Assembly (NCBI RefSeq): GCF_053078305.1
Contig: NZ_CP166879.1
Length of the DNA: 64,000 bases
Reading direction: 5' to 3' (one strand)
Shown here piece by piece: positions 11,145 to 20,436 of this stretch (the stretch's first letter is position 1; each line of letters opens with the position of its first letter). The notes below the pieces were generated by a model. That model saw only the letters and a program-made list of their open reading frames with translations. It was not told the DNA's origin and made no database searches. The translations under genes were made by a program, and so were the position numbers.

Positions 11145-11737
11145 AACACCTTCGCGAAATAGTCCGGGATGGTGGTTTTATCTTTCACCAGAATACTGGT
11201 AATGCCTAGCTGATTAGCTCCTTCTATATTATCGGCGTTATCGTCGAAAAAGGCCGTATCGCTGGGTGAAAAACCTTCCGCCTGCAAAACATGCTGGTAA
11301 ATTCGAGCTTCAGGTTTGCGCATCCCCAGATCTTGCGACAGATAGATATGGTCAGCAGCATCACGAATTTCCGGGTATTCTTCCGGCCAGAAGGTGGTAT
11401 GCAGGCGGTTGGTATTGGAAAGCACCACCACGCGATGCCCCTGCTCACGCAGTTTATGCATGATGGCGATCACTTCCGGGCGCAGCGCAACAAACACCGC
11501 CTGCCAGCCGTGAGAGAACTGCTCGTAGCTTAGCGGTAGAGCCATCTCATGACACAGCGCCTCTGCGAACGCTTCGTCGCTAATTTCCCCACGCTCATGC
11601 TGATGAAACGCCTCGCCCATGTGGAAACTCTTCTTAAGCGTAGCCAGTGGAACACGCGTTAAATCGCTCCAGGCACCCAGCACACGGTTAAAGTCGATAT
11701 CGACAATCACATTACCTAAATCAAAGATATAGAGCAT
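11138..11737 (-). CDS. yihX: HAD-family alpha-D-glucose-1-phosphate phosphatase
   Basis: HAD motif I ([10 protein letters not shown]) near the N-terminus; ORF track extends to 11758 but the likely start is the Met preceding LYIFDLGN. Confidence 0.9.
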
Positions 11738-11877
11738 TTTTGCCTCCTTTCGCGCCACAAGAAATTAACTGTAGCGGGAAAGGATGGGTTTGGCTATGTG
11801 GCAATAAGGGTAATCTTGTGATGCTGATTGCGAAAAAGCAGAGTAATTTCACTGGCTTTTTCGCAATAGATGAATGG

Positions 11878-12822
11878 TTAAGATTCAGGTGTAAATTGCC
11901 AACGAGTTTCGATAACCAGCGGCCTATCTGGTGTCACCAATTCCGGCGTTAGATTTATTGCGTTAGGTGCCTGAGTCAGCGGGTTAATACAGGTGGCATC
12001 GGGCTGTTTATCAAATACCACCAGACTGTTTGCAGAAGAGATCATGGTCATCGCGAGTTTACCAGGCCACAGTAACTTAACCTTCACCCCGTCATAAAAA
12101 CCAAAACAGTCATCCCAGGGACCGACTTGAGGAGAGATGCGATTTCCAGTTGGCAGTTCATCACTACCCGCTTCTTCTTGCCAGTCCGCATCAAAAAGCA
12201 CCTGCAACGATTCTGTATTTTGCGGAGTCAGCTTTTTCGCAAACCACGGATGCCAGCCTGCGGAGGCCGGGAATGTATCGGCATATGAATGGACTTCCAG
12301 TTGCAAAACCAGCGCATCGTTCTCCAGCAAAAAAGTCTGAATCACTTCCCCTTGCCAAGGCCACGGTGAAGCCAGGGGCATACGTAAAGTCAGGGAATCT
12401 GCTGTTTTGTCGATGATTTCCCACGTTGAGTAACAAGCCATACCATGCAACGCATGTGGTGGTTTATTGGCGGGTAAAGAATAACATTGCCCACCAGCAT
12501 TCAGCGTCGCATTCCCCAGTCGCCCTGCCCACGGCACCATTGGGAAACAGCCATACTGAAAAGCTCTACGCTGCGGCTGCCATTGGCGTAATACTTCAGA
12601 ACCAAATGCCTTTAACGAGGTTATCCTGGCACCATCATGCGGATAAATCTGCAGGTGAATATTGCCTTTTTCCAGCGTCACTAACTCTCCTACAGGCCCA
12701 GGCCATGGCGCGTCAAACGCCTGTTGTAGCGCCAGGTAATGCTCGTTTTTTCGTTCAGTTTTCATGAGATTGTTCCCTGATGTAGCGGTAAGAAGCGGTT
12801 TCTTGTTCATCGGTCGGCTCAA
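11878..12822 (-). CDS. Aldose 1-epimerase (mutarotase) family protein, YihR-like; true start probably at 12765 or 12810
   Basis: 314-aa ORF, mutarotase-like composition; its 5' end overlaps the 3' end of the upstream MFS gene by up to 68 bp. Confidence 0.6.
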   Translation of the reverse strand: MSRPMNKKPLLTATSGNNLMKTERKNEHYLALQQAFDAPWPGPVGELVTLEKGNIHLQIYPHDGARITSLKAFGSEVLRQWQPQRRAFQYGCFPMVPWAGRLGNATLNAGGQCYSLPANKPPHALHGMACYSTWEIIDKTADSLTLRMPLASPWPWQGEVIQTFLLENDALVLQLEVHSYADTFPASAGWHPWFAKKLTPQNTESLQVLFDADWQEEAGSDELPTGNRISPQVGPWDDCFGFYDGVKVKLLWPGKLAMTMISSANSLVVFDKQPDATCINPLTQAPNAINLTPELVTPDRPLVIETRWQFTPES

Positions 12823-14104
12823 TCAGCCAGACGCAAACAAAGGAAAGAACTGAGACAGCAAATAAAAACAGAGCGACATACCACGGTTTTCCTCCCCCTA
12901 GCGCCAGCAAACTTGAGGCGATAAGGGGGCTTAGTCCGCCAAGAATCGCGGAAAATTGATAAGCAAAAGAAAGGCCGGTATATCGTACTTTGGTACCGAA
13001 CATGCGGGTGAAAAGTGTTGGCTGCACGGCAAACATCATCGTCGGACCTAAGTTGTAGCCGAGGATCATACTGCACCAGATGATGAGCGTACTTTTGCTA
13101 TCCAGTAATAAGAAGAAAGGAAACGCGAACAGGACACAAAATCCTGCTCCCGACAAATACAGACTTTTTTGACCTATACGATCTGATAACCATCCAACCA
13201 ATGGACAACTGAAAATACCGATCGCCGAGGCAATCAACATACCCGTCAGGGGAATATCTCGCGATAATGCTAATTGGCTGGAAATATAGACAATACCAAA
13301 GGCGTTAATAATATTAGAGGAGACACTTTCCGCCAGCCTCGCACCCAGTGCCAATAAAATATTTCGTGGATGTTTTTTGAATAATTCAATCAACGGAGGA
13401 ACGGACTTTTCTTTATTATTCGTCGTTTTTTGCTTTTGAAAATCCAGCGTTTCTTCGGTATGCAGGCGGATAAACAGCCCAACGATCAACATCACCGCAG
13501 AAAGCCAAAACGGAATGCGCCATCCCCAGGAGAGAAACTGCTCCGAAGTAAGAAAATGGTTACAGAGAGCAAAAATACCGGTTGCCAGCATAATACCCAC
13601 AGACGCAGCCGTTTGCGGGAGTGAACCTAAGAATCCGCGTCGGGATTCGGGCGCTGATTCTATGGTCATCAATGCCGCTCCACCGTACTCGCCACCAAGA
13701 CCAAAGCCCTGAATCAAACGCAGCACCATTAATACAAGCGGTGCCCAAATGCCAATTTCCTGATACGTCGGAATAAAACCAATCAAAAATGTGGAGCAAC
13801 CGACAATAGCCAGCGTCCAGATAAGTGTTATTTTTCGCCCGATTTTATCGCCAAAATGACCAAAGACGATGCCCCCTAAAGGACGAGTCAGAAAACCGAC
13901 ACCAAAGGTCGCAAAGGAAGCTATAAGACCTATAAAAGGATCGCTGTCTGGATAAAACAGCGGTGCAAATACCAGTCCTGCTGCCGTGCCAAAAATAAAG
14001 AAGTCATACCATTCCATTAACGCGCCTGCGAAACTGCCCATAACGACACGTCTCATGGCTTTACCGGAAAGCCCTTCACGCGGTGCGGGTAACTTTTCAG
14101 ACAT
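12755..14104 (-). CDS. MFS transporter, metabolite:H+ symporter (MHS, ProP/KgtP-like) family
   Basis: 449-aa 12-TM ORF with MEWYDFFIFG and GHFGDKIGRK motifs typical of MHS transporters; not the GPH-type YihO/YihP of the K-12 locus. Confidence 0.75.
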   Translation of the reverse strand: MSEKLPAPREGLSGKAMRRVVMGSFAGALMEWYDFFIFGTAAGLVFAPLFYPDSDPFIGLIASFATFGVGFLTRPLGGIVFGHFGDKIGRKITLIWTLAIVGCSTFLIGFIPTYQEIGIWAPLVLMVLRLIQGFGLGGEYGGAALMTIESAPESRRGFLGSLPQTAASVGIMLATGIFALCNHFLTSEQFLSWGWRIPFWLSAVMLIVGLFIRLHTEETLDFQKQKTTNNKEKSVPPLIELFKKHPRNILLALGARLAESVSSNIINAFGIVYISSQLALSRDIPLTGMLIASAIGIFSCPLVGWLSDRIGQKSLYLSGAGFCVLFAFPFFLLLDSKSTLIIWCSMILGYNLGPTMMFAVQPTLFTRMFGTKVRYTGLSFAYQFSAILGGLSPLIASSLLALGGGKPWYVALFLFAVSVLSFVCVWLIEPTDEQETASYRYIREQSHEN

Positions 14105-14202
14105 AATTTTCCTCTCCTGGTAGGCGAGAAATCTGGGATACGAACCACTAAACGTGGGCAGTTTGAATTAATGCGCATCGGCTTAAGCCGATGCGCATTA
14201 AA

Positions 14203-15636
14203 TTATTTCTTCAATTCAGCCAGAACCTCTGCGTCCTCAGCATCAACATTTGCACCCAGTGGTTCCCAATGAATCAATACGCAGGTCAGGAACCCCAGGA
14301 ATGGCACGATTGCCAACCAGTAAAACGCTTCAGTTTTCAACGCACCCCACAGCATCGGCCAGAAAATGAGTCCTGCAATTGCCCCTGTGCGCATAATAGC
14401 GCGGGCAAATCCGACCCCAGTAGGGCGAATAGCGGGAGGATAAGAGAGTGTGGCAATGGTCATGCCCAGCCCACCAGGACCCGCTGAATGGAAGAAAATA
14501 ATTGATCCCAATAACCCTAAAGACAGCCAGGGATTAGTCGTTGCCAGTGCGCCTAACGACAGCAATGCTAAGGTCACAACAGCAAATCCATACATCGACT
14601 GTCGGCGAGTACCCAGTCGTTGGAGAATAAACGAGCCGATCATCCCGCCTGTCACCCCACAAAGGGCATTCACGACGGCAGAACCGGTCAACGCGCCAGT
14701 AAGCCCGCCACTTATTATTCCCGCCAATGTAAGAGGAAGATAAACACCTACGGCGTTATATTGCCACGCCTGCATGGTTGCCACGACACAGCCAAGAATG
14801 GTGCGTTTGCGGTAACGATCATTAAATAAGATGCCATATCCACCACTGTATTTATTCTCTGCTTTTTCCGAGAATTTCGCTTCTGTTGTACTCGATGCCG
14901 CAACGCGAGCCTGAACACCATAACGTTTTCCCAGAATGTCGCACGCTTCCTGGTAACGCCCGACGCGTGCGGCCCACATTGCGGATTCACCAATAAAGAA
15001 GTAACGCAAAATCATGAAGATGACTGCAAAAATAGCTCCGATGAATATTCCGTAACGCCACAATTGTTCTTCAGCGATACCCGACAGAAGCAGCGGCAAA
15101 AGTACCAAATAAACAACGGTTGTCGAAACATACCAGGCCATTTGCCAGAGGTTGACCGACGTTCCGGTTTTCTTCGACGTTGAACCACGAAGCTCTGCCA
15201 CGGCATTGGTTGCCAAAGGGAAGTCGATGCCTAAACCAAAGCCCATGATGACGCGGCACACCAGCACCCACCAGATACTGGGAGCAATAGCTACCGCTGC
15301 AGCACCGATGGTGCACAGCCCCATGCCAATAATAAATGCCCGCTTTTGCCCAAAGCGGTTTATTACTCGGTTCGCTAATAAACCGCCAATTAACGCGGCG
15401 ATTAATACTGATGCATTGACGGTTGCAGCAAGACCCGGCGAAATGCCGAATTGAGCGGCAATGTATTTATTACCAAACCCCACCATCGCCGCCTGGTAGG
15501 CATCAATCAATATGCCGCCCAAAGCAATAAAAATAACGCCGATACTGGTGTTGATTGCAGAGTTCTTATTAACAATATCAATTACGTCCTGTGGCCGACT
15601 AATTGAATAAGTTGCAGGACTGGTGATTTGACTCAT
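14203..15636 (-). CDS. MFS transporter (sugar-porter / aromatic acid:H+ symporter-like)
   Basis: 477-aa polytopic ORF with MFS-type loop motifs (GQKRAFIIG, LGIDFPLATNAVAEL). Confidence 0.75.
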   Translation of the reverse strand: MSQITSPATYSISRPQDVIDIVNKNSAINTSIGVIFIALGGILIDAYQAAMVGFGNKYIAAQFGISPGLAATVNASVLIAALIGGLLANRVINRFGQKRAFIIGMGLCTIGAAAVAIAPSIWWVLVCRVIMGFGLGIDFPLATNAVAELRGSTSKKTGTSVNLWQMAWYVSTTVVYLVLLPLLLSGIAEEQLWRYGIFIGAIFAVIFMILRYFFIGESAMWAARVGRYQEACDILGKRYGVQARVAASSTTEAKFSEKAENKYSGGYGILFNDRYRKRTILGCVVATMQAWQYNAVGVYLPLTLAGIISGGLTGALTGSAVVNALCGVTGGMIGSFILQRLGTRRQSMYGFAVVTLALLSLGALATTNPWLSLGLLGSIIFFHSAGPGGLGMTIATLSYPPAIRPTGVGFARAIMRTGAIAGLIFWPMLWGALKTEAFYWLAIVPFLGFLTCVLIHWEPLGANVDAEDAEVLAELKK

Positions 15637-15705
15637 CGCAGTGTCCTTTTTAATTGTTGTAGGGTGGCGCTGACGTGACGCAGCGCCAGACAGAGATTTA
15701 GAAAA

Positions 15706-16716
15706 TCATTCCGGCGCAAATTGCAGCATGACCTTTATGGAGTCATTTTGCTGCGCGCGTTCGAATGCCGCCGCTGCATCCTCAATGGCAAATAAATCGG
15801 TAACCAGTTCACTGGTATCAAACCGCCCATCCGCCAGCCATTCGATAACAGCATCGAAATCTTCAGGGATGTACATGCCAGAGTTGAGCAAGTCACGCTC
15901 GAAACGTTGCATCATCGGTAATGGTATTTCACGCGGCCCACTTGGTACGCCCATGCACACGACGGTGCCTCCGGCATATACACGGGTACATGCATCGTTA
16001 AGCGTGGCCTGCGCTGCAACGACATCAATCGCCCCCGTAAATCGCACATCTGCGGCCAGCTCACCTGGTGCCCAAACTTCTGCTGCGCCCAGCTTTAACG
16101 CCAGCGCGCGTTTGGCAGCGTCAGGTTCAATCACGGTAATCTTACCTGCCCCCATAATGCGCAGTGCCTGCACGATGGATAAGCCTATCGTTCCGGCACC
16201 AATCACCAGTACGCTTTCCAGAGAAGCTTTCGGCATTCGGTTAACGCAGTGACGGGCACAAGCCGCCGGTTCGGCAAAGGCCAACACTTTTAGCGGTAAA
16301 GAGGCTGGTGCGACATGGCAATTACGCGCAGGAACAATGTGTTGTGAGCGAGCAAAGCCCGGTGCGCGAAAACCAGCAACCTGCGGTGGTTCACAAAGAT
16401 TAAAACGTCCTGCTTTGCAGGCTCGGCATTCCATGCAAGCCATGATGGGATCGACCACAACATGATCGCCCGGCTGTACATTTTTAACGTCGCTGCCAAC
16501 TTCCGTAACGCGCGCTGCAATTTAATGACCGGGGACGACAGGTGGTTTGGCAAACGGATGACCGCCTTTCAGAACATGCAGATCCGAACCGCATATCCCA
16601 TGGAACACAGGCGCAATCCGCACTTCGTGCGGTTTAAGTTCCTGGTGTGGTACTTCAACATATTGAGTGGTGACTTTCCCAATATCTGAAAATAAAACCT
16701 GGGTAATTTTATCCAT
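15706..16716 (-). pseudogene. Zinc-dependent alcohol dehydrogenase (MDR family) interrupted by a single in-frame TAA
   Basis: N-terminal 64-aa ORF (…CGSDLHVLKGGHPFAKPPVVPGH*) and C-terminal 250-aa ORF are in the same frame, separated only by TAA at 16522..16524 (minus strand). The stop falls where Zn-ADHs carry the Glu of the GHE motif; Rossmann motif VIGAGTIGL lies downstream. Confidence 0.7.
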
Positions 16717-16748
16717 TGTTATTCTCCAGAATCGATATCCATAGGGGA

Positions 16749-17636
16749 TTAGCGTTGCGCGATACCTTCATCGACAATTTCTGCCAACCGTTGTAAACGA
16801 GGAACAGAGACATCGCGCAGCATAATTTGTGGATCTTGTGCACCAACAACCGACGCCCAAACCGCTCGTCCAGCCAGGAAGCCTGACGCACCACCTTTCA
16901 TGGCAATACTTACTGCACGGCCAAAAATATCGGCATCAACGCCAGAAGAAAGAATTACCCACGGCATCTTCATCTGATCGTTAAGTTGCTGACAGGCGGC
17001 AAGTAAGGTTTTTTCATCGCCTTTGCCCCCTAATGGCATCTCGGCTTTGTAAAGATCAGCCTCTGTTCCACCAAGCTCTGCGGCGGCGGCAACAATGGCG
17101 CTTTCACGATCAAAGTCCCAACCGCGACGAGGTGGACGCACCACAGGTTCAATAATGCTAACCAGCCCGGCACTACGGCAGCGACGAACAAATTTATCAA
17201 CCATTGCCAGACGTTCCTCTGCGGGTTCATCTTCACGCCAGAGTACAAGTAATTTCATTGCCTTAGCCCCCATTTCACGGGCTTTATGCGGGTCGACGGA
17301 CATATCTATTTCAACGCTATCAACCGGGATGCCATTACCTGGGATAAAAAGATCGGCAGCGACAATCAGGCCGCAAGAATTAGCAACAGCGCCCTGCTCG
17401 ACTATTTGCTCAAGACAAAATTGTTTATCCGCCAGAACGGCAGAAGCATAAGGAGAAAGGATTCGGGTCGCGGCAACTTTAAAATCGGTGAGTACACTGT
17501 CGGCGATGGGTTTTGGCTGCCCTGCTGCCGCAAACATCAAGCGCATGGCCTCACGCTGATCGACAGCTAACATGGCAAATCCACCACCTGGGCGGGAGAT
17601 ATCTTTCAGCGTAAATGGGGTGAAGTGGGATGACAT
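16749..17636 (-). CDS. Class I aldolase, YihT (sulfofructose-phosphate aldolase)-like, divergent from the K-12 protein
   Basis: 295-aa ORF containing [40 protein letters not shown] and [13 protein letters not shown], blocks I recall as shared with E. coli YihT, with many substitutions elsewhere. Confidence 0.7.
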
Positions 17637-17660
17637 AGAAACTCCTGTTAATAGATAAAA

Positions 17661-18560
17661 TTAAAGACCAGCCTGCTGGCGAACCTGATTTAGCAGGGCA
17701 CTCCAGTCCTGCCGCCCTTTGCCGTCTTGACTTGCTGCAGCGTAATAACTTTCTGCTGCAATCCCCATATTGAGCGGTGCCCCCGTCTCCCGAGCGACGT
17801 CAACTGCAATACGCAGATCTTTCAACGCCAGATCCACCATGAAGGCGGGTGAAAGATCGCCTTTCAGCACTTTGCCAGGCCAGGTGGTCGTAAAATGTCC
17901 TTTCCCTGCTGCCGTACCACTCATCACCTTAATTGCGACATCAAGATTTAATCCCAGTGACTCACATAACACAGCGGCCTCGGAGGACAGCGCATTAAGC
18001 GCAATGCTCATATAGTTGTTAATTAGCTTCACGCGGATCCCCATTCCAGGGCCGCCAGCCTCGACCAGCTCATTACCCATGCACATGAGAATCGGGCGTG
18101 CACGTGCAATCTGCTCATCAGTGCCACCCGCTAAAATCAGCAATGTGCCATCAATCGCATTCACGGACGTTCTGCCCACGGGGGCGTCCATCATACTGAT
18201 GCCTTTTTCTTGTAACTCCCGTATTAATGCATCGGTCTGTAAGGGATGAATAGTCGACATATCAATCAATAACGCGTCAGATGAAACAGCCTCACAGACG
18301 CCTTTTTCCCCCAACAGAACCTGTCGAACAATGTCACCATTGGGAAGCATAGTGATGATAAATTCAGCGCCTGCTGCTGCTTCCGCTGGGGTTTGTGCCG
18401 CAGTGGCCCCCTGCGTAACTAGCGCATCGACGGCCAGTGCATTGACATCAAATACCTGCAATGAATGCCCTTTATGCAATAGATTGTTAGCCATTGGGCT
18501 ACCCATCTGCCCCAGCCCGAGAAATGCAATGGTTGCCATGAATACTCTCCTGTCTGACAT
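17661..18560 (-). CDS. NAD(P)-dependent beta-hydroxyacid dehydrogenase, YihU (sulfolactaldehyde reductase)-like, divergent; alternative start 18539
   Basis: Rossmann motif [14 protein letters not shown] near the N-terminus plus [21 protein letters not shown] and [13 protein letters not shown] blocks; roughly 70% identical to my recollection of K-12 YihU. ORF track extends further upstream to 18740. Confidence 0.7.
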
Positions 18561-18711
18561 TGACAAAATAATGACAATTGAAAATTCGTTTTCGTCTGTT
18601 TTTGAGCATATTTGTAATTTATGTTCAAAAACACGACATACATCACTAATTTGATCATTTGTGTCATTTAAATTGACCAAAGACGACAAAATTAAACAGG
18701 ACAAGACAAAT

Positions 18712-19608
18712 ATGACCAGAATTGCATGCGTGGGTATCACAGTTCAGGACAGGATTTATTCTTTGCCCACTCTGCCGGAGGGCGGCGGGAAATATCAGGC
18801 AAATCATTATCTTGAGATTGGTGGCGGCCCGGCAGCAACAGCCGCTGTTGCAATCGCAAGGCTTGGCGTGGAAGTTGATTTCATCGGTCGCGTCGGCGAT
18901 GACAGTTGTGGAAATACCTTACTTGCAGAACTTGAGGGTTGGGGCGTCAATACAGCATTTTGCCGCCGATATCCTAACGCCCGTTCGTCGCAATCAGCGA
19001 TCCTCGTTGATCAGCATGGCGAACGGATTATCGTTAATTATCCAAGTCCTGATCTCGGTACTGATGCCGAATGGTTAGAAGCGATCGATTTCTCTCGTTA
19101 TGATCTGATTCTGGCCGATGTTCGCTGGCATAGCGGTACTGAAAAAGCATTCTCGCTAGCGCGCCTTGCGGGTGTGACAACGCTTTTAGACGCCGATATG
19201 ACACCGCAGGATATTTCTCCACTTGTCGCGCTTGCCGATCACGCCGTGTTCTCAACGCCAGGGCTGAAACGCATGACTGGCCTGCAGTCACCTGAAGAAG
19301 GTTTGTTCCAGGCAACGACACAAACAGCAGGTAAAGTGTATGTTACGCTGGGTTCTGAAGGATCGTTGTGGATTGAAGATGGTCATTTGTGTCAACAGGA
19401 GGCATTTTCTGTCAATGTGGTTGATACCACTGGAGCAGGCGATGTTTTTCACGGCGCACTCGCGGTAGCGTTGGCAGAAAAAATGCCAACAAAAGAGGCT
19501 ATTCGTTTTGCCAGTGCGGTTGCCGCGATGAAATGTACCCAGCCTGGCGGTCGGGCCGGCATTCCTAATCGTGAGCAAACCGAATCATTTTTGTCACTTT
19601 ATGCGTAA
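18712..19608 (+). CDS. PfkB-family sugar kinase, YihV (sulfofructose kinase)-like, divergent
   Basis: Starts [16 protein letters not shown]; PfkB signature [17 protein letters not shown] near the C-terminus. Transcribed divergently from the yihU-like gene. Confidence 0.7.
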
Positions 19609-19647
19609 AATGGTAAACATCTACCGAGGAGGGGCAAGGGAGTATTC

Positions 19648-20436
19648 ATGAGTATCATCGAAGTGACAGGTAATCCACGCCATGACCAACTCGTTCATCT
19701 AATCGCAGAACGCGGTTATATGAATATTGAAGAACTGGCACAACTGCTGGATGTTTCAACGCAAACCGTGCGCCGGGATATCCGAAAACTCAGTGAGCAG
19801 GGCTTGATCACCCGTCATCATGGAGGGGCCGGGCGCGTCTCCAGCGTCATGAATACCGCTTTTGAGCAACGGGAACTTTCGCTCACCGCCGAGAAACGGG
19901 CGATCGCTGAGGCAGTCGCCGATTACCTTCCCGAACGCTGTACCGTCTTTATCACCATCGGTACAACCGTAGAAGCCGTTGCCAGGGCATTACTCAACCG
20001 GCGTGATTTACGCATTATCACTAACAGCCTACGTGTGGCACAGATTCTTTATAAGAATCAGGATATTGAAGTGATGGTGCCGGGAGGCACTTTACGCGCT
20101 CATAACGGCGGGATTATCGGCCCAGGAGCCGTGGATTTTATTGAAGGCTTCCGCGCAGATTATTTAATCACCAGTATAGGTGCCATTGAACATGACGGCA
20201 CCCTACTGGAATTTGATGTAAATGAAGCGTTAGTCGCGAGAACGATGATTAAACATGCGCGGAATACATTGTTAGTGGCCGATCATACGAAGTTTGCCGC
20301 GTCTGCTGCCGTTTCAATTGGCAATGCACGGAATGTCAGGGCTTTTTTTACTGATGCCCCGCCTCCCAATTCTTTCTGCCAGTTGTTAAGTGAAGAGAAT
20401 GTTGAACTGGTGGTTGCCGAGCAGGAAGTTTCCTGA
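19648..20436 (+). CDS. DeoR-family transcriptional regulator, YihW/CsqR-like
   Basis: 262-aa ORF with an N-terminal HTH (EELAQLLDVSTQTVRRDIRKL) and a DeoR C-terminal sugar-phosphate-binding domain. Confidence 0.75.
   Translation: MSIIEVTGNPRHDQLVHLIAERGYMNIEELAQLLDVSTQTVRRDIRKLSEQGLITRHHGGAGRVSSVMNTAFEQRELSLTAEKRAIAEAVADYLPERCTVFITIGTTVEAVARALLNRRDLRIITNSLRVAQILYKNQDIEVMVPGGTLRAHNGGIIGPGAVDFIEGFRADYLITSIGAIEHDGTLLEFDVNEALVARTMIKHARNTLLVADHTKFAASAAVSIGNARNVRAFFTDAPPPNSFCQLLSEENVELVVAEQEVS

What the first reader, a model, noticed from the sequence alone, without database searches (positions are those of the whole stretch)
12755..12822. Start-site ambiguity and overlap between the MFS transporter and the downstream epimerase
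The epimerase ORF as tracked overlaps the last 68 nt of the upstream transporter gene. Alternative in-frame Met codons at 12810 and 12765 reduce the overlap to about 11 nt, consistent with translational coupling. Which start is used changes the N-terminus by up to 19 residues.
Basis: seen in the sequence. Interest (0 to 1): 0.15.

Follow-up and report, generated by a model that had tools for sequence, protein, structure and literature searches.

The report
Epimerase gene start resolved: ATG 12765
The apparent 68-base overlap between a transporter gene and the next gene comes from reading the longest open frame; the real start is the ATG at 12765, which leaves an ordinary 11-base overlap that reference E. 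coli annotation already uses.

Summary
On the minus strand an MFS transporter gene (14104..12755) is followed by an aldose-1-epimerase-like ORF. Its longest form starts at TTG 12822 (314 aa, 68-nt overlap). In-frame ATGs lie at 12810 (56-nt overlap) and 12765 (295 aa, 11-nt overlap, ATGAAAACTGA).

The evidence points to ATG 12765:
- 110 homologues down to about 42% identity begin at the column of that Met.
- A conserved motif (ALxxAFDAPWPGPxG) follows directly.
- In 5 of 7 orthologous loci from other genera the upstream extension holds no start codon.
- The synonymous-substitution signal of coding begins right after 12765.
- Of the three in-frame candidates that keep the motif, only this ATG has a usable Shine-Dalgarno match (-5.1 kcal/mol, against -1.5 and -1.9).
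- RefSeq annotates the 295-aa form in three E. coli genomes.

A fourth candidate that I found, GTG 12681 with a strong AGGAG, is an E. coli-specific coincidence. It would remove a conserved, confidently modelled N-terminal helix and loop.

Translational coupling is plausible but inferred. The finding is ordinary and already settled in public annotation.

Side observations are more interesting. The gene belongs to a conserved 8-gene cluster that extends the published "short yih cassette". Its Zn-dehydrogenase gene carries a nonsense codon in this window. The epimerase-like protein has Asn where mutarotases have the catalytic Glu.

The parts
12755..14104 (-). MFS transporter CDS (449 aa), closest to the metabolite:H+ symporter / shikimate-transporter group; stop TGA at 12757-12755
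   Evidence: ORF list. Pfam Sugar_tr and MFS_1. NCBIfam TIGR00883 scores 406.8 bits and PRK09952 409.7 bits, both below their curated cut-offs. RefSeq annotates the same ends.
11878..12765 (-). Aldose-1-epimerase-like CDS with the best-supported start, ATG 12765 (295 aa)
   Evidence: Homologue N-termini; orthologous loci; RefSeq WP_000846261.1 and WP_001298595.1, 888 nt; Pfam PF01263; model pLDDT 95.3; fold match to 3nre, TM 0.78.
12755..12765 (-). 11-nt overlap ATGAAAACTGA: epimerase start codon to transporter stop codon
   Evidence: Sequence. The identical 11-mer occurs in Citrobacter amalonaticus and Mixta theicola, and an 11-nt overlap also in E. lignolyticus.
12773..12779 (-). Shine-Dalgarno-like CAGGGAA, 7 nt before ATG 12765, inside the transporter's last codons
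   Evidence: Duplex with the 16S 3' tail is -5.1 kcal/mol, in the range of the neighbouring genes' starts, -3.9 to -11.6.
12766..12822 (-). 19-codon in-frame extension (TTG 12822, ATG 12810). Rejected as epimerase coding sequence; it encodes only the transporter's C-terminal tail.
   Evidence: Weak SD, -1.5 and -1.9 kcal/mol. The extension is not conserved: 5 of 7 orthologous loci have no start codon there, and all seven are closed by an in-frame stop, 0-14 codons upstream in six of them.
12679..12691 (-). Internal AGGAG (12691-12687) plus GTG (12681-12679). Rejected as a start.
   Evidence: SD is -7.3 kcal/mol. The codon is GTA in Citrobacter, Mixta and K. oxytoca. It lies downstream of the conserved AFDAPWPGP motif and of the confidently modelled helix 4-15.

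Best explanation
The epimerase-like gene starts at ATG 12765 and encodes a 295-aa protein. The 19 codons upstream (TTG 12822, ATG 12810) are the 3' end of the transporter gene, which happens to be open in a second frame. The two genes overlap by 11 nt (ATGAAAACTGA), and a moderate Shine-Dalgarno sequence (CAGGGAA) lies in the transporter's last codons. They are very probably co-transcribed. Ribosomes finishing the transporter at TGA 12757-12755 are then well placed to start the epimerase 8 nt upstream, which is translational coupling. Shown here: the start position and the conservation of the junction. Inferred: co-transcription and coupling.
For: (1) Of 110 full-length homologues at 42-74% identity, nearly all begin at the column of Met20, and none carries the E. 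coli extension. (2) The motif ALxxAFDAPWPGPxG directly after that Met is conserved across Enterobacterales, Vibrio, Alphaproteobacteria and Sutterella-like bacteria (W21 and G23 are more than 90% conserved). (3) In orthologous loci the upstream in-frame extension has no ATG/GTG/TTG in C. amalonaticus, Budvicia, E. lignolyticus, Rhodopseudomonas palustris and K. oxytoca, with stops 0-14 codons upstream. (4) In codons 5-28 after ATG 12765, 8-11 of 14-20 differing codons per species pair are synonymous in frame 0, against 0-3 in the other frames. Upstream, the epimerase frame has 0 synonymous of 8 between E. coli and Citrobacter, while the transporter frame has 4 of 9. (5) SD pairing is -5.1 kcal/mol with a 7-nt spacer, against -1.5 and -1.9 for the two upstream candidates. 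(6) NCBI's annotation of E. coli D8, 600468 and UTI89 gives an 888-nt CDS overlapping the transporter by 11 nt. (7) The AlphaFold model of the 295-aa form has pLDDT 95.3. Only residues 1-4 are disordered, followed by helix 4-15. (8) The junction is always tight: 11-nt overlap in 4 loci, ATGA in 1, gaps of 11-45 nt in 3. No promoter-like site was found near the junction.
Against: There is no direct evidence such as N-terminal proteomics or ribosome profiling. Homologue starts are themselves gene-caller predictions, which is why DNA-level checks were added. The SD at 12765 is only moderate, and the internal GTG 12681 has a stronger one (-7.3). The synonymous/non-synonymous test on the 12 codons upstream is weak overall, because the transporter tail itself evolves fast: 15 synonymous to 79 non-synonymous in its own frame, against 11 to 79 in the epimerase frame. 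The junction RNA shows no special structure (z = -0.41), so nothing forces dependence on upstream translation.
Confidence: 0.88

Rival explanations
1. The longest ORF is real: translation starts at TTG 12822 or ATG 12810, giving a 314- or 310-aa protein whose first 15-19 residues are encoded in a 56-68-nt dual-coding overlap with the transporter.
For: The frame is open and holds start-type codons. Mixta has a TTG 10 codons upstream and Vibrio has nearby ATGs.
Against: SD pairing is only -1.5 and -1.9 kcal/mol. No homologue shares the extension. In 5 of 7 orthologous loci the extension has no start codon and is closed by a stop. There is no synonymous-site signal in that frame. RefSeq does not use it. 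From general knowledge: same-strand overlaps longer than about 60 nt in bacterial annotations are mostly start mispredictions.
Confidence: 0.04
2. Translation starts, mainly or additionally, at the internal GTG 12681, 5 nt after a strong AGGAG. This would give a 267-aa protein with a 73-nt intergenic gap, the same length as E. coli YphB-type epimerases.
For: It has the strongest SD of the four candidates, -7.3 kcal/mol. PDB 3nre residue 5 aligns to this position. Streptomyces homologues of 262-272 aa begin about here.
Against: The 28 residues before it contain a motif conserved to 42% identity. They are modelled as an ordered helix and loop at pLDDT above 90. A synonymous-substitution signal is present across codons 5-28. 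The codon is GTA in Citrobacter, Mixta and K. oxytoca, and the AGGAG is simply the Gly-Glu codons.
Confidence: 0.05
3. The start is ATG 12765, but initiation is independent: free 30S subunits bind the CAGGGAA site and there is no coupling. The overlap would be only compact gene packing.
For: The SD is comparable to those of neighbouring independent starts. No occluding RNA structure is predicted. K. oxytoca, Budvicia and Vibrio manage with gaps of 11-45 nt.
Against: The overlap geometry recurs in four genera, and R. palustris has the classic ATGA. SDs are weaker in the overlapping junctions (-2.9 to -5.4) than in three of the four others (-6.1 to -7.4), with K. oxytoca the exception at -2.9.
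Confidence: 0.3

Closest known systems
Short same-strand gene overlaps with translational coupling in bacterial operons (for example trpE-trpD and trpB-trpA in E. coli, and ATGA or TGATG junctions generally)
   Same: Adjacent genes on one strand. The start codon of the downstream gene lies within a few bases of the upstream stop. The SD is embedded in the upstream coding sequence. Adjacency is conserved across genera, and R. palustris has the ATGA form.
   Different: The overlap is 11 nt rather than the commonest 1 or 4 nt. Coupling itself has not been measured.
Long-overlap start-codon mispredictions, where the longest ORF is taken as the gene
   Same: The 68-nt overlap arises only when the longest ORF is used, and disappears with the homology-supported start. 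The adjacent yihX ORF shows the same effect.
   Different: Public annotation (RefSeq) is already correct here.
E. coli K-12 YihR (putative sulfoquinovose mutarotase) and YphB (PDB 3nre)
   Same: Galactose-mutarotase fold: TM 0.78 to 3nre and hhalign probability 98% to YihR. Both catalytic His and the Asp are conserved. It sits next to homologues of YihT, YihU, YihV and CsqR at 67-72% identity.
   Different: Only 27% identity to YihR over 164 aa. NCBIfam PRK15172 scores 33.8 bits against a cut-off of 251. It has an extra 28-residue N-terminal helix and loop with the AFDAPWPGP motif. Asn261 stands where YihR and GalM have the general-base Glu.
The 'short yih cassette' (yihTUVW) of E. coli Nissle 1917 and pathogenic strains (Kaznadzey et al. 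2025, PMC12608037)
   Same: Same chromosomal site between yihX and yihN, inverted relative to K-12. It is present in 1342 of 5426 complete E. coli genomes.
   Different: The paper describes four genes and calls the cassette truncated. Here those four genes are contiguous with Zn-ADH, two MFS genes and the epimerase-like gene, and all eight travel together in other genera.

Membership tests
Aldose 1-epimerase / galactose mutarotase-like (Pfam PF01263) | Pfam domain match above the gathering score | tested here: met
   78.6 bits against a cut-off of 27. Only profile positions 2-195 of 299 are matched.
Aldose 1-epimerase / galactose mutarotase-like (Pfam PF01263) | Mutarotase beta-sandwich fold | tested here: met
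   Model pLDDT 95.3. Foldseek gives 3nre at E = 6e-22 and TM 0.78, B. subtilis GalM at TM 0.80, and L. lactis and human GalM at TM 0.74-0.77.
Aldose 1-epimerase / galactose mutarotase-like (Pfam PF01263) | Two active-site His and the Asp | tested here: met
   H107, H172 and D218 are invariant in 110 homologues. They align with YihR AIHG, GIHPY and KIDHTF.
Aldose 1-epimerase / galactose mutarotase-like (Pfam PF01263) | General-base Glu (E304 in L. lactis GalM, Glu254 in HsSQM; PMC5902678) | tested here: not met
   Asn261 (CINP) aligns with the YihR AVEP Glu. The column is N in 70 and E in 38 of 110 homologues.
Aldose 1-epimerase / galactose mutarotase-like (Pfam PF01263) | Mutarotase activity | not testable with these tools
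   Needs an enzyme assay, for example NMR exchange spectroscopy as in PMC5902678.
YihR-type sulfoquinovose mutarotase | Equivalog-level sequence similarity to YihR | tested here: not met
   27% identity over 164 aa. NCBIfam PRK15172 scores 33.8 bits against a cut-off of 251.
YihR-type sulfoquinovose mutarotase | Clustered with sulfoquinovosidase (yihQ) and SQ isomerase (yihS) | tested here: not met
   Neither gene is in the cluster. Zn-ADH and two MFS genes take their place. YihT, YihU, YihV and CsqR homologues are present.
Translationally coupled overlapping gene pair | Same strand, with the start codon overlapping or abutting the upstream stop | tested here: met
   11-nt overlap, 12755-12765.
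Translationally coupled overlapping gene pair | Junction conserved in related genomes | tested here: met
   11-nt overlap in 4 genera, ATGA in 1, gaps of 45 nt or less in 3.
Translationally coupled overlapping gene pair | No separate promoter or terminator between the genes | tested here: inconclusive
   The consensus scan finds none near 12700-12900, but such scans are weak evidence.
Translationally coupled overlapping gene pair | Downstream translation depends on upstream translation | not testable with these tools
   Needs reporter fusions with an upstream nonsense mutation.
Metabolite:H+ symporter (MHS) family of MFS (the upstream transporter) | NCBIfam TIGR00883 at the curated cut-off | tested here: not met
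   406.8 bits against a cut-off of 443.45. It is one of the two best matches (PRK09952, shikimate transporter, scores 409.7), but both fall below their cut-offs. General MFS membership is met.

The most novel reading that the evidence does not exclude
The start-site question itself has no novel reading left. The most novel reading my evidence does not exclude concerns the protein it delimits. It is a mutarotase-fold protein with a family-specific N-terminal helix and AFDAPWPGP loop. It has Asn in place of the catalytic Glu. It is tightly coupled to an anion-type MFS transporter inside a conserved 8-gene cluster: CsqR-like regulator, SF-kinase-like, SLA-reductase, SFP-aldolase-like, polyol-type Zn-dehydrogenase, two MFS transporters and the epimerase-like protein. 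This protein may not be a simple mutarotase. It could instead be a dedicated component of an uncharacterised sulfosugar or sulfo-polyol pathway that replaces the K-12 sulfoquinovose operon in about a quarter of E. coli genomes.
Probability: 0.15. Interest if true: 0.5.

Novelty: already known. Interest (0 to 1): 0.06.

Why it matters
For the finding as given, it matters little. It shows that the long overlap comes from longest-ORF reading and that the 295-aa form in RefSeq is right. That is relevant only to anyone cloning or modelling this protein. The correct start keeps a conserved N-terminal helix and loop, and drops 19 spurious residues. The surroundings matter more. The gene is the last member of a conserved eight-gene cluster that the literature currently treats as a truncated four-gene "short yih cassette" of unknown role in Nissle 1917 and ExPEC strains.

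Tried and rejected
(1) Within-species variation. All 1342 E. coli genomes carrying the junction are at least 99% identical over 351 nt, so they cannot discriminate between starts.

(2) Synonymous/non-synonymous counts in the 12 codons upstream of ATG 12765. These were inconclusive across all pairs, at 11 to 79 in the epimerase frame and 15 to 79 in the transporter frame, because the transporter tail is itself poorly conserved. Only the closest pair, E. coli and C. amalonaticus, is informative.

(3) RNA structure at the junction. The minimum free energy is -19.5 kcal/mol and z = -0.41, no better than shuffles, so there is no evidence for a structure that would enforce coupling.

(4) Promoter and terminator scan. 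Nothing lies near the junction, and promoter counts do not exceed shuffles.

(5) Internal GTG 12681 with a strong SD. I considered it seriously because PDB 3nre and the Streptomyces homologues begin about there. I rejected it on motif conservation, the ordered model and the lack of codon conservation.

(6) Literature. The 2026 sulfoquinovose review (PMC12890257) does not mention the short cassette, Nissle, or the cluster's Zn-alcohol dehydrogenase. The 2025 cassette paper (PMC12608037) does not discuss the epimerase, Zn-ADH or MFS genes.

(7) I did not run the large genome or metagenome scans. Eight loci were enough for this question.

Full report
**What is there**

Both genes lie on the minus strand. 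The MFS transporter ORF runs 14104..12755 (449 aa), with stop TGA at 12757-12755. The next ORF, read from its first possible start, runs 12822..11878 (314 aa). It begins with TTG, directly after an in-frame TGA at 12825-12823. Pfam assigns Sugar_tr and MFS_1 to the first and Aldose_epim to the second. NCBIfam places the transporter nearest the metabolite:H+ symporter and shikimate-transporter models, below their cut-offs.

- TTG 12822 gives a 68-nt overlap.
- ATG 12810 (codon 5) gives a 56-nt overlap.
- ATG 12765 (codon 20) gives exactly 11 nt, ATGAAAACTGA.

GTG 12681 (codon 48) is preceded by AGGAG at a 5-nt spacing.

**Is it more than chance?**

No. By my arithmetic, a 19-codon stop-free stretch upstream of a true start has a probability of about 0.40. 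It would contain at least one ATG, GTG or TTG about 62% of the time. The neighbouring yihX gene shows the same effect: its longest ORF starts at GTG 11758, while RefSeq uses ATG 11737, which has a strong AAAGGAGGC site.

**Which start is used**

1. *Ribosome-binding sites.* Pairing with the 16S rRNA 3' tail is -1.5 kcal/mol for TTG 12822, -1.9 for ATG 12810, -5.1 for ATG 12765 (CAGGGAA, 7-nt spacer) and -7.3 for GTG 12681. Neighbouring annotated starts range from -3.9 to -11.6.

2. *Homologues.* A database search returned 479 relatives. The full-length ones are 288-309 aa and cover 89-95% of the 314-aa query. In an alignment of 110 of them, nearly all begin at the column of Met20, and none shares the E. 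coli extension. The motif ALxxAFDAPWPGPxG follows immediately. It is conserved from Enterobacterales to Vibrio, Rhodopseudomonas, Telmatospirillum and Sutterella-like bacteria. Translation must therefore begin upstream of GTG 12681.

3. *DNA of orthologous loci.* This check matters because homologue starts are themselves predictions. In C. amalonaticus, Budvicia, E. lignolyticus, R. palustris and K. oxytoca, the in-frame stretch upstream of the aligned ATG has no start codon and is closed by a stop 0-14 codons away. Only Mixta (one TTG) and Vibrio (two nearby ATGs) have alternatives.

4. *Substitution pattern.* In codons 5-28 after ATG 12765, about half of the differing codons are synonymous in the epimerase frame and almost none in the other two frames. 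Upstream, E. coli against Citrobacter shows 0 synonymous of 8 in the epimerase frame but 4 of 9 in the transporter frame. The transporter tail motif SYRYxRExSHEN* is recognisable. Summed over all pairs, the upstream test is weak because the tail evolves fast.

5. *Public annotation.* RefSeq records for E. coli D8, 600468 and UTI89 all give an 888-nt aldose 1-epimerase CDS that overlaps the transporter by 11 nt.

6. *Structure.* The 295-aa form, modelled with 46 homologues, reaches pLDDT 95.3 and pTM 0.92. Only residues 1-4 are disordered. Residues 4-15 form a helix, and the conserved loop that follows is modelled at pLDDT above 90. Starting at GTG 12681 would delete this element.

7. *The internal GTG.* The GTG plus AGGAG is specific to E. 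coli. The codon is GTA in Citrobacter, Mixta and K. oxytoca, and the AGGAG is simply the Gly-Glu codons.

I conclude that ATG 12765 is the start.

**How the junction probably works**

The transporter-epimerase adjacency is conserved in all eight loci examined:
- an 11-nt overlap in E. coli, Citrobacter, Mixta and E. lignolyticus;
- the classic ATGA overlap in R. palustris;
- gaps of 11, 38 and 45 nt in Vibrio, Budvicia and K. oxytoca.

No promoter-like site lies near the junction, and the RNA there has no unusual structure. The simplest reading is co-transcription, with re-initiation or facilitated initiation by ribosomes terminating 8 nt downstream of the ATG. That ribosomes can re-initiate at nearby upstream starts is established knowledge. 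That they do so here is inference. SD strength is lower in the overlapping junctions (-2.9 to -5.4) than in three of the four others (-6.1 to -7.4), which fits some reliance on coupling. K. oxytoca is an exception.

**Comparison with what is known**

The protein has the galactose-mutarotase fold. Its best PDB match is E. coli YphB, 3nre, at TM 0.78. It is only distantly related to K-12 YihR: 27% identity, hhalign probability 98%, and far below NCBI's YihR-type equivalog cut-off. The junction is an ordinary short overlap, and the long form is an ordinary longest-ORF artefact. Nothing about the start site is new.

**Context noticed along the way**

- *An eight-gene cluster.* The window is E. coli. 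The junction is present in 1342 of 5426 complete genomes, between yihX and yihN, where K-12 carries ompL-yihO..yihW. The neighbouring regulator, kinase, reductase and aldolase are 67-72% identical to K-12 CsqR, YihV, YihU and YihT. The reductase passes NCBI's sulfolactaldehyde-reductase cut-off. This is the "short yih cassette (yihTUVW)" of Kaznadzey et al. 2025 (PMC12608037). That paper describes it as truncated, not induced by sulfoquinovose, and of unknown role. In fact the four genes are contiguous with a polyol-type Zn-dehydrogenase, two MFS transporters and this epimerase-like gene. The eight-gene set is syntenic in Citrobacter, Mixta, Klebsiella, E. lignolyticus, Budvicia, Vibrio and Rhodopseudomonas. 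It therefore looks like a distinct conserved pathway rather than a remnant.
- *A pseudogene in this window.* The Zn-dehydrogenase gene has a nonsense codon at position 65, in the GHE zinc-ligand motif. It is intact in three other strains.
- *A missing catalytic residue.* The epimerase-like protein has Asn261 where YihR and GalM have the general-base Glu. Across homologues the position is N in 70 and E in 38 of 110.

**Verdict**

The question resolves in favour of ATG 12765, as public annotation already has it. Interest is low.

Noticed in passing
window 11878-20436 (minus-strand genes 11878-18539; plus-strand kinase 18712-19608 and DeoR regulator 19648-20436): The published 'short yih cassette' (yihTUVW; PMC12608037) is contiguous here with a Zn-dehydrogenase, two MFS transporters and the epimerase-like gene. 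The same eight genes are syntenic in Citrobacter, Mixta, Klebsiella, E. lignolyticus, Budvicia, Vibrio and Rhodopseudomonas. This suggests a distinct conserved pathway with an unknown substrate, not a truncated sulfoquinovose operon. The aldolase is the DeoC/LacD type in most loci but the class II FBA type in Budvicia and Vibrio.
   Followed up: partly
window 15706-16716 (-), stop at about 16522-16524: The Zn-dependent dehydrogenase gene of the cluster has a premature stop at codon 65 (the GHE zinc-ligand motif reads GH*). The codon is Glu in E. coli D8, and the gene is annotated intact in strains 600468 and UTI89. The cluster is therefore probably inactivated in this window's strain.
   Followed up: partly
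window 11983-11985 (Asn261 codon of the 295-aa protein; CINP motif at about 11980-11991): The canonical mutarotase general-base Glu is Asn in the E. coli protein. Among 110 homologues the column is N in 70 and E in 38. N occurs in the enteric clade, Vibrio and Sutterella-like bacteria. E occurs in Budvicia, Rhodopseudomonas and Streptomyces. The two His and the Asp are invariant.
   Followed up: partly
window 12682-12765 (residues 1-28 of the 295-aa protein): This family has an N-terminal extension that E. coli YphB (3nre) lacks. It consists of helix 4-15 and an AFDAPWPGP loop, is conserved to 42% identity, and is modelled at pLDDT above 90. Its role is unknown.
   Followed up: partly
window 14168-14201: A perfect 34-nt palindrome (TTAATGCGCATCGGCTTAAGCCGATGCGCATTAA) lies in the 98-nt gap between the two MFS genes. 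It might be a REP-like or RNA-stabilising hairpin. I did not examine it further.
   Followed up: no
window 11737-11758 (-): The longest yihX ORF starts at GTG 11758 (206 aa), but RefSeq uses ATG 11737 (199 aa), which has a strong AAAGGAGGC site at -11.6 kcal/mol. This is the same longest-ORF artefact as in the finding.
   Followed up: yes
L008 (K. oxytoca), about 5955-6011: In K. oxytoca the transporter ends 45 nt before the epimerase ATG because of an earlier stop (435 aa against 449-455 aa). The DNA downstream is still homologous to the E. coli tail. The transporter's C-terminal tail therefore seems dispensable.
   Followed up: partly
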